From contig JAGLLT010000012.1 of assembly GCA_023140385.1 (NCBI GenBank), forward strand, positions 1 through 32,378: a DNA stretch of 32,378 bases. Reading direction: 5' to 3'. Shown here in pieces: positions 3,001 through 6,000 of this stretch. The position numbers are program-made. Source of the stretch: Candidatus Omnitrophota bacterium. Its GTDB lineage: Bacteria > Omnitrophota > Gorgyraeia > JAGLLT01. The first letter of the stretch is position 1. Each line of letters opens with the position of its first letter.

Positions 3001-6000
3001 TACAAAAAGCTATCACATTTGACGGCGGCGCCCCCTCTCCTATTTTAGATCCGGATAATATAAGTTCCGCCTTTTTTGAAGATCTAATTTTTTCAGCCCC
3101 TTACAGCGTTAAGTCAAATCCTAAAGTACTTCTGATAGGAGCCGGCGGTTTTGGCAGCGCCCTGCTGGCTAATTATCATAACAGCAGATACATTAAAGTA
3201 TTAGAGATAAATCCTAAGGTTATTTCCGCGTTAGAAAAGAATATGACAACTTCTTTTGGCCGGTGGATAAAAAAAGCAAATATACAAATAACCAAAACAG
3301 ACGCCCGAAGCTATATAGAAAAGTCTCAAGAAGAATTTGATATTATCCAAATGGATCCTGCAGGTACCCTGACTTCATCCGCTTCCGGACTATTCGCGCA
3401 AAATGAAGATTACTTAAATACCGTCGAATCATATAAACTTTTTATACAGAGGCTTGCCCCCGACGGTATGTTTATGATAAGCCGCTGGATGAGCACGCCG
3501 GCAAAAGGCGGAATAAAATTATTTGCTACCGGAGTTAGAGCATTAGAAGAGCTTGATATAGAAAACCCTGAAAATAACTTAGTTTTGATAAAAAATTGGG
3601 ACATCATAACCCTGCTGATAAAAAAAGACCCTTTTACCACTAACGAACTGAAGAATATAAAAAATTTCTGCGGCAAAAAACATTTTGATACTTCGTATTT
3701 TCCCGGGATAGAAAAATCGCGGACAAACCGCTTTCACATCCTGCCGGAACCCATATATTATCTGGCGGCGCGAAGTATAATAAACAAGCAAGACAGAGAA
3801 GATTTTTTTACAAATTATACATTTAATGTTAGGCCGGCTGTTGACAATAAGCCTTATTTTTCACATTTTTTTAAATGGACCTCCCTGCCCTATCTTATTA
3901 AAACTTTAGGCAGAGAGTGGATTCCTTTTGCCGAATACGGTTATCTAATACTCCTGGCCTCTTTCATTCAATCTTTGGTGGTAGGCGGATTACTTATACT
4001 TTTGCCTTTAGGAATTTTGGTTTTTAAGCGCGGGAGAGAAAACAGCGTTAAATTTAAATTCAATACCTGGCTGTATTTTGTATTTTTAGGTTTATCATTT
4101 ATGATTTTAGAAATGGGCTTGATTCAAAAATTCATCCTTTTTCTGCATAACCCTATATATTCCGCCTCTATAGTAATAGGTTCGTTTCTTACTATCTCAG
4201 GCATCGGAAGTATGCTAAGTAAAAGGTTTTTTAACAAACAGGCAAAATATCAAATAATACCTTTTATAATAATAACAATATTGGCCGTTTTATACGCTTG
4301 TTTTCTTGATTCACTTTTTTATAAGTTAATGGGACTAAACATTTACACCAAACTCTTGCTTTCGATTATAATTATTGCCCCTCTGGCCTTACTCTTAGGC
4401 ATTCCCTTTCCTCTCGGGATGCGGAAAATATCTCCTACGGGTGAAGTCAACACAGGCATCGCCTGGGGATGCAATGGGTTCTTCTCGGTAATAGGTGCTA
4501 TTCTAACTCCTATCTTAGCCATGCTTTTGGGATCTCAAATCGTGATTTTAATAGGCGGGCTGGGTTATCTTTTAGCAATGTTTATGTGGAAACTTAAATT
4601 TGACTAAATAGTGACGACAATCCCATCGGATTTTTATTGGAACCGGATTGTCATAGAGATTAAAACTCTACTCTCCTTTGTATTTTACCAGGCTAAAAAC
4701 TTCTACTCCCTGTGATTCAAGATTTTCCCGGCCCTTTAAATCCTCCAATTCTACTACAAAAGCCGCTTCAACAATACTAACCCCTAATCTTTGTAATATT
4801 TTCACAAAGGCTGACGCCGTGCCTCCCGTAGCTATCAAATCATCTATAATCAAAACTTTGTCCTCTTTGCCAATAGCGTCTTTGTGAACTTCTATCTGGT
4901 CTTTGCCATACTCTAAATCGTATTCTTGACTATATGTAGGAGCCGGCAGCTTCCCTTTCTTTCTAACAAGAACAAAACCAACATTTAACCTGTCTGCCAG
5001 AATACTGCCAAAGACAAACCCTCTGGACTCTATTCCCGCGATTAATGTTATATCTTTATCCTTGTACCTGCCGCATAAAGCTTCCATCACTTTTCCCATA
5101 GCTTTGGTATCTTTTAATAAAGTGGTTATATCCCTAAACATTATTCCCTTTTTAGGAAAATCCGGAATTGTTCTAATACTATTCTCAACAACATTCTCCT
5201 TATCTGCGATCATCCTAACGGCTCCGGTAACTATTTTTACCATGTTTCCTATATTTTGAGAGAACATCTCTTTAATTTGAGGCCACGACACAGGAGCCTC
5301 ATCTTCTTTCCAACTGTCATAATCCGTAACCATGGCTATGGCCGCGTACTCAAGCCCTATTTCTTTTGCTAAAATAGCTTCTTGAGCCACTGTCATATTA
5401 ATAACATCGCCGCCTAACATTTTGTACATTTTTGATTCTGCTCTGGTAGAAAAGCGGGGGCCCTCTATTGTCACTACACAGCCTTTTTTATGATATCTAA
5501 TACCAAGCTCCTGACAACTTTCCGCCAACTTGCCTCTTAAAAATCCCGAAAACGGGTCACCCAAAGGAGCATGTACCGGCTCACCCTCAAATTTATCATA
5601 AAAAGTTGACTTCCTGCTTTTTGTAAAATCTAAAAATTGGTCTAAAACAACAAAATCGCCTCTCTTAATTTCCTCCTTTAAAGAACCTACTACAGTTGTT
5701 GCTATAATATGCCCTACGCCTTCGGCCTTTAGAGCGGAAATGATGGCTCTAATATTGACCTGGCTTGGCGGAGTTTGGTGCTCTTCGCCATGCCTCGAAG
5801 CCAAAACAATCTCTTGCCCGGATAAAAGTATTATATTTAATTTGACGGTTCCATAAGGCGTTGTTATTACGCTTGTTCTCCCCTTACCGATACTGTCCAT
5901 TTTCTCTAAACCGCTACCGCCTATCACGCCTAATTTCATTTCAACTCCTCAATTTCTTATCCTCATAATTGTATCATACATTATAATTCAAATAGAACCG

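What a model noticed while it worked through the whole genome (the two positions that open the first line are those of the whole stretch)
4668..5939. MTA phosphorylase fused to adenine phosphoribosyltransferase, shared with DPANN archaea and CPR
g00055 (423 aa) fuses a 5'-methylthioadenosine phosphorylase (PNP_UDP_1) to an adenine phosphoribosyltransferase, so that MTA would be turned into AMP by one polypeptide. It is the only PNP-family and the only APRT gene found in the assembly, lies tail to tail with the 802-aa membrane spermidine-synthase-like gene that releases MTA, and its full-length relatives are almost all in ultra-small-celled lineages of the other domain.
Evidence so far: Pfam PNP_UDP_1 2-241 (134 bits) + Pribosyltran 283-416; NCBIfam adenine phosphoribosyltransferase; 45-46% identity to animal and bacterial MTAP over 1-250. 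All 10 listed GTDB hits are full length (52-56% identity): 8 Nanobdellota (Pacearchaeales, Woesearchaeales), 1 Patescibacteriota, 1 Vulcanimicrobiota; none of the 10 UniRef50 hits covers the APRT half. Neighbour g00054 (Spermine_synth, 92% to the sister genus) ends 60 nt away on the other strand. The gene is the first of an island that runs to tRNA-Glu (C4:23751).
(Added by a program. Inside this text positions count along the whole contig: contig position 1 is position 1 of the stretch shown here. "Call 12" and the like, gene names such as g00115 and contig names such as C1 are that model's own, and its searches are not shown. The text may have been shortened before it was handed on; [...] marks where a part breaks off. 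The agent that wrote the report below was given it as the finding of a first reader that could run no searches.)

Follow-up and report, generated by a model that had tools for sequence, protein, structure and literature searches.

The report
Fused MTA phosphorylase–adenine phosphoribosyltransferase gene
A small Omnitrophota bacterium carries one gene joining two ordinary enzymes, so that the adenine in waste nucleosides left by S-adenosylmethionine reactions can be turned straight back into AMP; the gene was most likely acquired from outside the phylum, after the lineage had lost its own separate versions.

Summary
Window 4668-5939 (-) is one uninterrupted 423-aa ORF with an MTA-phosphorylase domain (1-247), a very short linker and an adenine phosphoribosyltransferase domain (254-423). 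It is the only PNP-family gene and the only APRT found in the 92.7%-complete Omnitrophota genome.

It is foreign to the lineage. None of 400 other Omnitrophota genomes has it. Most genomes of the same class carry separate, distant mtnP and apt genes. The five family relatives have no PNP-family gene, and one keeps a gutted apt relic. The gene sits in a variable island between a conserved 802-aa gene and tRNA-Glu.

- The 802-aa neighbour lacks spermidine-synthase signature residues, no SAM decarboxylase was found, and the adjacency comes from the island's edge.
- Single-ORF fusions are mostly in DPANN archaea (31 of 38 labelled loci), with some in CPR. Tightly adjacent mtnP-apt gene pairs of similar identity are common in Desulfobacterota, Nitrospirota and other bacteria.
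- The best tree nests the gene among DPANN fusions, but a Desulfobacterota-type origin is not rejected (p-AU 0.47).

The likeliest substrates are 5'-deoxyadenosine from 18 radical-SAM genes, and MTA. The result is solid but of moderate interest.

The parts
4668..5939 (-). Complete fused gene, 423 codons plus the TAG stop at 4668-4670.
   Evidence: ORF list and translation. Both Pfam domains lie in one frame. Per-run contigs bridge both ends.
5199..5939 (-). MTA / 5'-deoxyadenosine phosphorylase domain, residues 1-247. It is a short type without the C-terminal extension of the human enzyme.
   Evidence: PNP_UDP_1 over residues 2-241. Human MTAP aligns over 1-242, E 9e-61. Family-invariant residues include S9, R49, H50, T81, N181, M182, D206 and D208. 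The AF2 model ends the domain with a helix over residues 219-247.
5181..5198 (-). Junction, residues 248-253. A two-residue break and a short helix lie between the last MTAP helix and the first APRT strand.
   Evidence: AF2 secondary structure: helix 219-247, helix 250-253, strand 256-258. The junction aligns with the other fusions with a gap of at most 6 residues.
4671..5180 (-). Adenine phosphoribosyltransferase domain, residues 254-423.
   Evidence: NF002634 239.6 bits and TIGR01090 228.3 bits, both above cut-off. APRT chains in PDB at E 1e-55 to 1e-56. Family-invariant residues include RK.GKLP (326-332), LEYG (342-345) and DDL.ATGGT (366-374).
5945..5950 (-). GAGGAG ribosome-binding-like motif, 5 nt upstream of the ATG.
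   Evidence: Read directly from the sequence.
4608..4667 (.). 60-nt convergent spacer between the 802-aa gene and the fusion gene. It marks the left edge of the variable island.
   Evidence: Similarity to relative G003 stops at window 4605. The consensus terminator scan found nothing in the spacer.
2199..4607 (+). Conserved 802-aa membrane protein with a degenerate spermidine-synthase-like domain. It is context only and not shown to be part of the system.
   Evidence: Spermine_synth 27.7 bits. It is 92-94% identical in relatives that lack the fusion. The SpeE motifs are not kept.
4608..23750 (.). Variable island of about 19 kb, with the fusion gene at its left end. Apart from an AbiEii/AbiEi pair, its content is specific to G000.
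   Evidence: Nucleotide and ORF-level comparison with G003, where 9.4 kb of different genes fill the same slot. Pfam content. GC is 35.9% for 9165-23491 against 41.0% for the genome.
23751..23827 (-). tRNA-Glu (CTC), the right border of the island.
   Evidence: ARAGORN. Synteny with G003 resumes at window 23647.

Best explanation
The gene encodes a bifunctional enzyme.

**Proposed reaction**
- The N-terminal domain splits 5'-substituted adenosines with phosphate. Substrates would be 5'-methylthioadenosine and, probably more important here, 5'-deoxyadenosine made by radical-SAM enzymes. Products are free adenine and the sugar-1-phosphate.
- The C-terminal domain condenses that adenine with PRPP to give AMP.
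- Joining the two domains through an almost linker-less helix gives 1:1 expression. It also places the adenine-consuming site beside the adenine-producing one, so an inhibitory by-product is cleared and its adenine is not lost.

**Shown here**
- The domain identities, the conserved motifs, the single open frame and purifying selection.
- It is the only copy of either activity found in the genome.
- PRPP synthase is present.

**Inferred**
- Both activities, the identity of the physiological substrate, and any channelling of adenine.

**Evolutionary reading**
- This Omnitrophota family lost its native, separate mtnP and apt genes.
- The G000 lineage regained both functions at once by horizontal acquisition of a ready-made fusion into a variable island beside tRNA-Glu.
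- The best tree places the gene with DPANN (Pace-, Woese- and Nanoarchaeota-type) fusions. The donor is not settled.
- The fusion type itself most likely arose, more than once, from tightly adjacent mtnP-apt gene pairs.

**How sure each part is**
- The overall confidence of 0.7 covers the bifunctional adenine-recapture enzyme acquired horizontally.
- By part, my estimates are about 0.85 for bifunctionality, about 0.85 for a foreign origin, about 0.5 for 5'-deoxyadenosine as the main substrate, and about 0.5 for a DPANN donor.
For: **Domains and motifs**
- Residues aligned to the human MTAP phosphate-, ribose- and base-binding positions, and the APRT PRPP and loop motifs, are invariant across 25 fusions. 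The functional roles of these residues are recalled, not tested.

**Selection**
- All 22 of the 22 listed strain differences inside the gene are synonymous. In the neighbouring gene, 8 of 15 are.

**Genome context**
- It is the only PF01048 match in G000, and there is no other APRT or HGPRT.
- Prs is present.
- There are 18 radical-SAM matches.
- Passages of PMC8102628 state that MtnP cleaves both MTA and 5'-deoxyadenosine.

**Foreign origin**
- 0 of 400 other Omnitrophota genomes match at E<=1e-60.
- Most same-class genomes hold separate genes, with MTAP at 37-43% and APRT at 41-57% identity.
- The native Omnitrophota MTAPs are separated from the clade holding the query by a branch of length 1.19 with 100% SH-aLRT.
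- 0 of 5 family relatives have any PF01048 match.
- G005 keeps an apt relic with its central catalytic part deleted. The relic is closer to native Omnitrophota APRTs (56-62%) than to the query (48%).
- The island is variable between relatives.

**Affinity**
- Query+P0004 is supported 100/100 and +P0005 100/98. Their nearest labelled rows are Nanoarchaeia, Pace- and Woesearchaeota fusions.
- P0005's best labelled hits are Pacearchaeota and Nanoarchaeota at 61-66%.
- Grouping the trio with the CPR/bacterial fusion clade gives p-AU 0.023.

**Origin of the fusion type**
- 19 mtnP-then-apt and 4 apt-then-mtnP adjacent pairs occur among the first 80 loci. Several are in one frame, separated by a single stop.
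- The 66-row tree needs 7 changes between fused and adjacent states.
Against: **Function**
- No activity data exist for any member of the fusion.
- The MTAP equivalog model scores below its cut-off (258 against 274.85). P0001 and P0004 read TTVVGS where the other 23 fusions read TTA(V/C)GS.
- De novo purine genes PurF, PurH and PurA are present, so the gene is not needed to make AMP.
- Family relatives live without any such enzyme, so its role is accessory.
- No known MTA-producing enzyme was found among those searched: SpeD, a canonical SpeE, and DTW/TapT.
- No MtnA was found to take the sugar-phosphate further. The genome is 92.7% complete.

**Origin**
- Backbone support around the trio is weak in the careful tree: UFBoot 40, 45 and 64.
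- Joining the trio to the Desulfobacterota-type adjacent-pair clade is not rejected (p-AU 0.471).
- For the APRT half alone, a clade with native Omnitrophota APRTs is not rejected (p-AU 0.405).
- The hosts of the two closest relatives, P0004 (81%) and P0005 (61%), are unknown.
- The gene's GC (40.5%) equals the genome's (41.0%). No integrase was seen among the 19 island ORFs scanned, and no att-like repeat was found.
Confidence: 0.7

Rival explanations
1. Purine-scavenging reading. The phosphorylase domain mainly takes up exogenous adenosine or MTA released by neighbouring cells, and the fused APRT turns the adenine into AMP. The enzyme would be a nutrient-acquisition device typical of host-dependent ultra-small cells, rather than a by-product recycler.
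For: - Most carriers of the fusion are DPANN and CPR genomes of about 0.8-1.7 Mb.
- Some Nanobdellota genomes extend the fusion with an N-terminal PfkB-family sugar/nucleoside kinase, in proteins of 762-831 aa.
- The abstract of PMC5147791 (listing) reports an MTAP that uses adenosine.
Against: - G000 has PurF, PurH and PurA, so purine auxotrophy is not indicated.
- The Asp-x-Asp pattern and the best PDB hits are of MTAP type, but specificity among adenosine, MTA and 5'-deoxyadenosine cannot be read from sequence.
- I did not search for a nucleoside transporter.
Confidence: 0.2
2. The fusion recycles MTA released by the adjacent 802-aa membrane spermidine-synthase-like protein, and the two genes form a functional pair.
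For: - The two genes lie 60 nt apart.
- The neighbour passes the Pfam Spermine_synth cut-off: 27.7 bits as a protein and 30.7 bits on the genome, against a cut-off of 22.9.
Against: - The neighbour is 92-94% identical in relatives that have no PNP-family gene.
- The adjacency is created by the island boundary.
- The genes converge, so they share no transcript.
- GGGDGG reads GAGGFG and DSTDP reads MDPAG in the alignment to T. maritima SpeE.
- All NCBIfam aminopropyltransferase models score far below their cut-offs.
- No PF02675 AdoMet decarboxylase was found in the genome.
Confidence: 0.07
3. In-situ origin. Only the phosphorylase half is foreign. It landed next to, or was joined with, the native Omnitrophota apt gene, and the fusion arose independently in this lineage.
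For: - The APRT half is 51-58% identical to native Omnitrophota APRTs, against 60-63% to the APRT halves of other fusions.
- An AU test does not reject a clade of the query pair with native Omnitrophota APRTs (p 0.405).
- Fused and adjacent states changed at least 7 times on the tree.
Against: - The sister sequence P0005 has the same architecture and junction. It groups with the query at 100/98 on the full length and 98 on the MTAP half.
- The nine best APRT-half bit scores are all to fusion proteins.
- The family's native apt is not found in four relatives and is a deleted relic in the fifth.
- The gene lies in the variable island, not at a conserved apt locus.
Confidence: 0.08
4. Artefact. 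The single ORF results from mis-assembly, mis-binning, or a sequencing error that removed a stop codon between two adjacent genes.
For: - Adjacent same-frame pairs separated by one stop exist in other genomes, so a single base error could mimic a fusion.
- The genome is a 57-contig MAG.
Against: - Per-run contigs of runs X2, X3 and X4 cover the gene and both junctions with 0 differences. One X4 contig spans 4517-7093. These runs may be sources of the assembly.
- A run from a second study holds a variant of the gene whose 22 listed differences are all synonymous.
- More than 120 protein clusters show the same uninterrupted architecture.
- The flanks are syntenic with Omnitrophota relatives on the same contig.
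Confidence: 0.02

Closest known systems
S-methyl-5'-thioadenosine phosphorylase (MtnP/MTAP, EC 2.4.2.28; TIGR01694; e.g. human MTAP PDB 1cb0)
   Same: - PNP_UDP_1 fold.
- Aligns end to end with human MTAP (E 9e-61).
- Keeps the residues at the aligned phosphate, ribose and Asp-x-Asp base positions.
   Different: - Lacks the C-terminal roughly 27 residues of the human enzyme, because the chain runs on into APRT.
- Scores under the equivalog cut-off.
- Belongs to a clade of short MTAPs far from the native Omnitrophota MTAPs.
Adenine phosphoribosyltransferase (Apt, EC 2.4.2.7; TIGR01090, NF002634; e.g. PDB 2dy0)
   Same: - Full-length match above the curated cut-offs.
- The PRPP-binding motif and the catalytic-loop motif are present.
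   Different: It has no free N-terminus, being tethered to the phosphorylase by about 6 residues.
Uncharacterised MTAP-APRT fusion proteins of Pace-, Woese- and Nanoarchaeota and some CPR bacteria, annotated in databases simply as MTA phosphorylase
   Same: - Same domain order, junction and length (421-449 aa), at 52-58% identity, 61% for P0005.
- The query falls inside this group in the trees.
   Different: - The host is an Omnitrophota bacterium. It is the only carrier among the 401 Omnitrophota genomes searched.
- The query and P0004 sit on a long stem of 0.67 changes per site.
Adjacent mtnP-apt gene pairs of Desulfobacterota (e.g. Desulfospira joergensenii DSM 10085), Nitrospirota, Marinimicrobia and others
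   Same: - Same two enzymes in the same order, at 48-53% identity, with gaps of -46 to +48 nt. Several pairs share one frame with a single stop between them.
- They represent the same inferred pathway logic.
   Different: They are two polypeptides, not one.
[quoted passage not shown]
   Same: Consecutive steps around MTA metabolism are joined in one polypeptide (passages of PMC6302742).
   Different: - Different steps are joined. Those fusions act on the sugar branch, whereas this one acts on the adenine branch.
- That review does not mention an MtnP-Apt fusion in the passages found.

Membership tests
MTA phosphorylase (TIGR01694 / PF01048) | PNP_UDP_1 domain above the Pfam gathering score | tested here: met
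   134.8 bits against a cut-off of 25.1.
MTA phosphorylase (TIGR01694 / PF01048) | Score above the NCBIfam equivalog cut-off | tested here: not met
   258 bits against 274.85. All other MTAP equivalog models are also below their cut-offs. The shortfall fits the missing C-terminal tail.
MTA phosphorylase (TIGR01694 / PF01048) | Phosphate-binding and 6-aminopurine-specific residues (human T18, R60, H61, T93, M196, T197, D220, D222; numbering recalled from memory) | tested here: met
   The aligned query residues are S9, R49, H50, T82, M182, T183, D206 and D208. All except T183, which is S in most other fusions, are invariant or nearly invariant in 25 fusions.
MTA phosphorylase (TIGR01694 / PF01048) | Phosphorolysis of MTA or 5'-deoxyadenosine to adenine | not testable with these tools
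   This needs an enzyme assay.
Adenine phosphoribosyltransferase (TIGR01090 / NF002634) | Score above the equivalog cut-offs | tested here: met
   NF002634 239.6 against 170; NF002636 228.8 against 125; TIGR01090 228.3 against 185.85.
Adenine phosphoribosyltransferase (TIGR01090 / NF002634) | PRPP-binding acidic motif followed by ATGGT, and the catalytic-loop E-Y-G (motif roles recalled from memory) | tested here: met
   VLIIDDLIATGGT (361-374) and DLEYG (341-345) are present and invariant in the family.
MTAP-APRT fusion family | Both domains in one uninterrupted frame, in the order MTAP then APRT, with a short junction | tested here: met
   The frame is confirmed in per-run contigs.
MTAP-APRT fusion family | Phylogenetic placement among other fusions | tested here: met
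   The pair joins P0005 at 100/98, and the best trees nest the trio among DPANN fusions. Deeper nodes are weak, and one bacterial alternative is not rejected.
Spermidine synthase / aminopropyltransferase (for the 802-aa neighbour) | GGGDG dcSAM motif and the D-S-T-D catalytic motif (roles recalled from memory) | tested here: not met
   GAGGFG and MDPAG occupy the aligned positions against T. maritima SpeE 1inl. NCBIfam aminopropyltransferase models score 22-34 bits against cut-offs of 250-472.
Spermidine synthase / aminopropyltransferase (for the 802-aa neighbour) | A dcSAM supply (AdoMet decarboxylase) in the same genome | tested here: not met
   No PF02675 match in G000, while the control genomes rang in 7 of 14. 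The eukaryote-type family PF01536 was not searched, and the genome is 92.7% complete.
tRNA-flanked genomic island | Content differs between close relatives while the flanks are conserved, next to a tRNA | tested here: met
tRNA-flanked genomic island | Integrase, att direct repeats and deviant composition | tested here: not met
   No integrase or recombinase family appears among the 19 island ORFs scanned. No repeat of the tRNA end was found. The fusion gene's GC equals the genome's, and only 9165-23491 is lower, at 35.9%.

The most novel reading that the evidence does not exclude
The MTAP-APRT fusion may be a mobile 'one-gene adenine recapture module' that circulates between the ultra-small lineages of both domains (DPANN, CPR, Omnitrophota) sharing anoxic sediments and groundwater.

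- It may do more than co-express two enzymes. It welds a trimer-forming phosphorylase to a dimer-forming phosphoribosyltransferase through an almost rigid helix. It could therefore assemble into closed higher-order particles, such as a D3 hexamer or a cage, that channel adenine.
- The oligomeric states of the parent families are recalled from memory, not tested here.
Probability: 0.15. Interest if true: 0.7.

Novelty: new variant of a known kind. Interest (0 to 1): 0.45.

Why it matters
- **A clean gene-loss-and-regain case.** A reduced bacterial lineage lost two separate housekeeping genes and regained both functions through a single foreign, pre-fused gene.
- **An uncharacterised but abundant enzyme architecture.** More than 120 protein clusters share it, and at least 28 of 301 sampled Nanobdellota genomes carry it. 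I found no description of it in seven full-text searches.
- **A testable prediction.** Clearance of SAM by-products and adenine recapture should be coupled in one protein in organisms with minimal genomes. Adenine channelling can be tested directly.
- **A correction.** The apparent pathway link to the neighbouring 'spermidine synthase' is not supported.

Tried and rejected
**Hosts of the closest relatives**
- I tried to name the hosts of P0004 (81%) and P0005 (61%). The cluster look-up gave no names or accessions.
- The metagenome-contig scan with P0001 found no close relative; the best full-length hit was 50%.
- The genome-contig scan with P0005 did not find its own record.

**Earlier findings and first scan**
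- A single-protein scan of genome contigs returned only separate MTAP or APRT genes, because its patterns were too specific. I repeated it with alignment A1.

**Correction of my own interim reading**
- After I read the full-length tblastn matches in Desulfobacterales and other bacteria as fusions.
- ORF analysis showed that they are adjacent gene pairs.

**Trees**
- The APRT-half tree alone is unresolved.

**Island features**
- No att-like direct repeats were found.
- Promoter-like and terminator-like sites occur at chance level.
- PHROGs gave no phage hallmark in 10 island ORFs.

**Expression and complex prediction**
- No RNA holder was listed for the stretch, so expression is unknown.
- I did not run complex prediction. 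Two copies would only re-find known homodimer interfaces, and the hexamer exceeds the size limit.
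Full report
**1. The observation**

- Window 4668-5939 on the minus strand is a single 423-codon ORF with an ATG start and no internal stop. A GAGGAG motif lies 5 nt upstream.
- Pfam finds PNP_UDP_1 over residues 2-241 (134.8 bits) and Pribosyltran over 283-416 (58.9 bits).
- NCBIfam gives the MTA-phosphorylase equivalog TIGR01694 at 258 bits, just under its cut-off of 274.85. It gives adenine-phosphoribosyltransferase equivalogs well above theirs: NF002634 at 239.6 against 170, and TIGR01090 at 228.3 against 185.85.
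- Against solved structures, residues 1-242 match human MTAP (E 9e-61) and residues 245-422 match APRT chains (E about 1e-55).
- An AlphaFold2 model built on 25 homologues has mean pLDDT 83.5 and pTM 0.59. The phosphorylase ends in a long helix (219-247). After a two-residue break and a four-residue helix, the first APRT strand follows at 256. The junction is therefore only about six residues.

**2. Is it real DNA of this organism?**

- Relatives' records that carry the 92-94% identical 802-aa neighbour are titled Candidatus Omnitrophota.
- The flanks of the gene's contig are syntenic with relative G003.
- Logan per-run contigs from three cold-seep runs cover the gene and both junctions with 0 differences. 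One contig spans 4517-7093. These runs belong to one study and may be the source of the assembly.
- A run from a second study holds a diverged copy. All 22 of the 22 listed differences inside the gene are synonymous, against 8 of 15 in the neighbouring gene. Thirteen further differences were not listed by the tool.
- The ORF is therefore genuine and under purifying selection.

**3. Uniqueness in the genome**

- G000 is 1.495 Mb in 57 contigs and 92.7% complete.
- It has one PF01048 match, which is this gene.
- It has seven Pribosyltran matches. The other six are PyrR, PRPP synthase, PyrE, a ComF-like protein, PurF and one unassigned protein.

**4. Origin**

*Distribution within Omnitrophota*
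- Among 40 relatives, most same-class genomes hold a separate MTAP (37-43% identical to the query half) and a separate APRT (41-57%). This agrees with passages of a 2026 Omnitrophota preprint (10.64898/2026.06.07.730766).
- In a sample of 400 other Omnitrophota genomes, none matched at E<=1e-60.
- The five other genomes of the same family have no PF01048 match at all; their completeness is 83-95%.
- One of them, G005, keeps an apt relic. About 75 N-terminal codons are joined in frame to about 45 C-terminal codons, and the central catalytic part is gone. The relic is closer to native Omnitrophota APRTs (56-62%) than to the query (48%).

*Position in the genome*
- Similarity to G003 runs through the 802-aa gene and stops at 4605. 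It resumes at 23647, beside tRNA-Glu.
- Between these points G000 has 19 kb and G003 has 9.4 kb of different genes. They share only an AbiEii/AbiEi pair.
- No integrase was seen among the 19 island ORFs scanned by Pfam (ORFs of at least 100 aa), and no att repeat was found. The gene's GC (40.5%) equals the genome's (41.0%).

**5. The family**

*Size and true architecture*
- More than 120 protein clusters (at 90% identity) share the full two-domain architecture at 52-58% identity. P0004 is at 81% and P0005 at 61%.
- An alignment-based scan of species-representative genomes returned 80 loci. I first read many bacterial ones as fusions, and ORF analysis corrected this.
- Only 10 of the 80 are single ORFs, and all 10 are labelled archaeal.
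- 19 loci have mtnP followed by apt, with stop-to-stop frames -46 to +48 nt apart. Several are in the same frame with a single stop between them.
- 4 loci have the reverse order, 13 have both genes nearby, 33 have MTAP alone and 1 has APRT alone.

*Second scan and combined count*
- A second scan seeded with P0005 added 76 loci, of which 32 are single ORFs. Seven of those are labelled bacterial: WWE3, two 'Patescibacteria group', Buchananbacteria, an uncultured gammaproteobacterium, a Bacteriovoracaceae MAG and an unclassified bacterium.
- After removing 4 duplicate records, there are 38 labelled fusion loci, of which 31 are archaeal and 7 bacterial.

*Prevalence in one DPANN phylum*
- I sampled 301 genomes of the phylum of one Woesearchaeota carrier, and 124 matched at E<=1e-30.
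- 17 had an uninterrupted full-length match.
- 11 more had both halves in one uninterrupted frame of 446-842 aa.
- 13 full-length matches were interrupted by one stop. The listing was truncated by 47 matches, and the sample includes one unpublished genome, G658, which is not a fusion.

*Variants*
- Three long frames are PfkB-kinase-MTAP-APRT triple fusions, or carry an unassigned 340-aa N-terminal extension.
- The representative library also holds proteins with the reverse domain order, e.g. P0128.

**6. Trees**

*MTAP half (84 rows, quick)*
- Twelve native Omnitrophota MTAPs form a basal grade. A branch of 1.19 with 100% SH-aLRT separates them from a 70-row clade of short MTAPs that holds the query.
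- Query+P0004 has 100% support, and +P0005 has 98%.

*APRT half (85 rows, quick)*
- The tree is unresolved.
- A clade of the query pair with 9 native Omnitrophota APRTs is not rejected (p-AU 0.405).
- The nine best bit scores of the APRT half are all to fusion proteins (203-286 bits), against 179-201 bits for native Omnitrophota APRTs.

*Full length (66 rows)*
- The rows were all 38 labelled fusions, the query, P0004, P0005 and 25 hand-picked adjacent pairs with their two ORFs concatenated. Duplicates and the remaining adjacent pairs were left out.
- The quick tree puts the trio in a 17-row clade that is otherwise entirely DPANN (95% SH-aLRT).
- The careful tree keeps the pair at 100/100 and the trio at 100/98, with the same DPANN neighbours. 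Backbone support there is 40/71, 45/85 and 64/99.
- Forcing the trio together with the CPR/bacterial fusion clade costs 52.9 lnL (p-AU 0.023).
- Forcing it together with the Desulfobacterota-type adjacent-pair clade costs 3.1 lnL (p-AU 0.471).
- Both groups were defined after I had seen the tree.
- The fused/adjacent state changes at least 7 times and the domain label at least 6 times on the tree.

*Conclusion from the trees*
- A foreign origin of the gene is well supported.
- A DPANN donor is the best estimate but is not established.

**7. Function**

*What the sequence shows*
- The residues aligned with the human MTAP phosphate, ribose and base sites, and the APRT PRPP and loop motifs, are present in the query. 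All but one are invariant or nearly so in 25 fusions; the exception, T183, is S in most others. Their functional roles are recalled, not tested.
- A phosphorylase that releases adenine, joined to the enzyme that consumes adenine, implies the route nucleoside to adenine to AMP. PRPP synthase is present.

*Which nucleoside?*
Four results argue against that:
  - Aligned to T. maritima SpeE, its domain reads GAGGFG for GGGDGG and MDPAG for DSTDP.
  - No AdoMet decarboxylase was found.
  - It is the only Spermine_synth match in the genome, at 30.7 bits.
  - The same gene is conserved in relatives that have no phosphorylase.
- No DTW/TapT was found either.
- The genome has 18 radical-SAM matches, and MtnP enzymes are stated to cleave 5'-deoxyadenosine as well as MTA (PMC8102628, passages).
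- I therefore favour clearance of 5'-deoxyadenosine (and MTA) with recapture of adenine.

*Fate of the sugar and need for the enzyme*
- No MtnA was found. The sugar-phosphate is therefore probably dephosphorylated and discarded, as described for Synechococcus in the same paper. This is inference.
- PurF, PurH and PurA are present, and family relatives manage without any PNP-family enzyme. The gene is thus an accessory economy or detoxification function, not an essential purine source.

**8. Literature**

- Seven full-text searches found no description of an MTAP-APRT fusion.
- A review of methionine-salvage variants lists the MtnAK and MtnBD fusions, but none with Apt in the passages found (PMC6302742).
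- Databases name the fused proteins simply as MTA phosphorylase.
- Subscription journals are outside the library searched.

**9. Verdict**

- Three points need correcting. The neighbour link is unsupported. The two-gene form is widespread in ordinary bacteria, so the module is not confined to ultra-small lineages. The direction of transfer is not settled.
- It is a new variant of known enzymes, namely an uncharacterised fused architecture acquired horizontally by an Omnitrophota lineage that had lost both separate genes. It is of moderate interest.

Noticed in passing
L242:536-3031 (+), L243:1550-3838 (-), L241:1589-3919 (-): Some Nanobdellota genomes carry triple fusions of 762-831 aa: a PfkB-family carbohydrate/nucleoside kinase, then MTAP, then APRT. 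In the third case the 340-aa N-terminal part has no Pfam match.
   Followed up: partly
L149 (G005:C11) about 1146-1499, minus strand: A family relative keeps a native-type apt relic. About 75 N-terminal and about 45 C-terminal codons are joined in frame, and the central part that holds the PRPP motif and catalytic loop is missing.
   Followed up: yes
window 13637-23491: The island carries several likely defence or signalling genes: an FHA protein, a Ser/Thr kinase, an 833-aa Hsp70-like protein, a 549-aa PLD-family protein and an AbiEii/AbiEi pair. Only the AbiE pair is shared with relative G003, where it sits at a different distance from the flanks.
   Followed up: partly
window 8084-8206; L109 8415-8456, 9172-9219, 10986-11108: A short intergenic element of the island (about 120 nt, 85% identity) recurs three times in the corresponding island of relative G003.
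   Followed up: no
window 26971-27903 (-): Another two-domain fusion lies nearby: a Macro domain followed by a NUDIX domain (310 aa). This suggests ADP-ribose removal and hydrolysis in one protein.
   Followed up: no
proteins P0128 (452 aa), P0126 (519 aa), P0133 (684 aa), P0141 (793 aa): The representative library holds other architectures built from the same domains. P0128 has the reverse order (APRT then MTAP). The others are longer proteins with the MTAP domain at either end.
   Followed up: no
window 4794-5094 and 4779-5924: A minor strain in run X2 and a diverged strain in a run of a second cold-seep study carry the same gene. All listed differences between them and the window are synonymous.
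   Followed up: yes
cluster of P0088: A 435-aa fusion cluster also contains 174-178-aa proteins that NCBI annotates as stand-alone APRT of Vulcanimicrobiota/Xenobiia. Either gene calling splits the fusion there, or both forms exist in that lineage.
   Followed up: no
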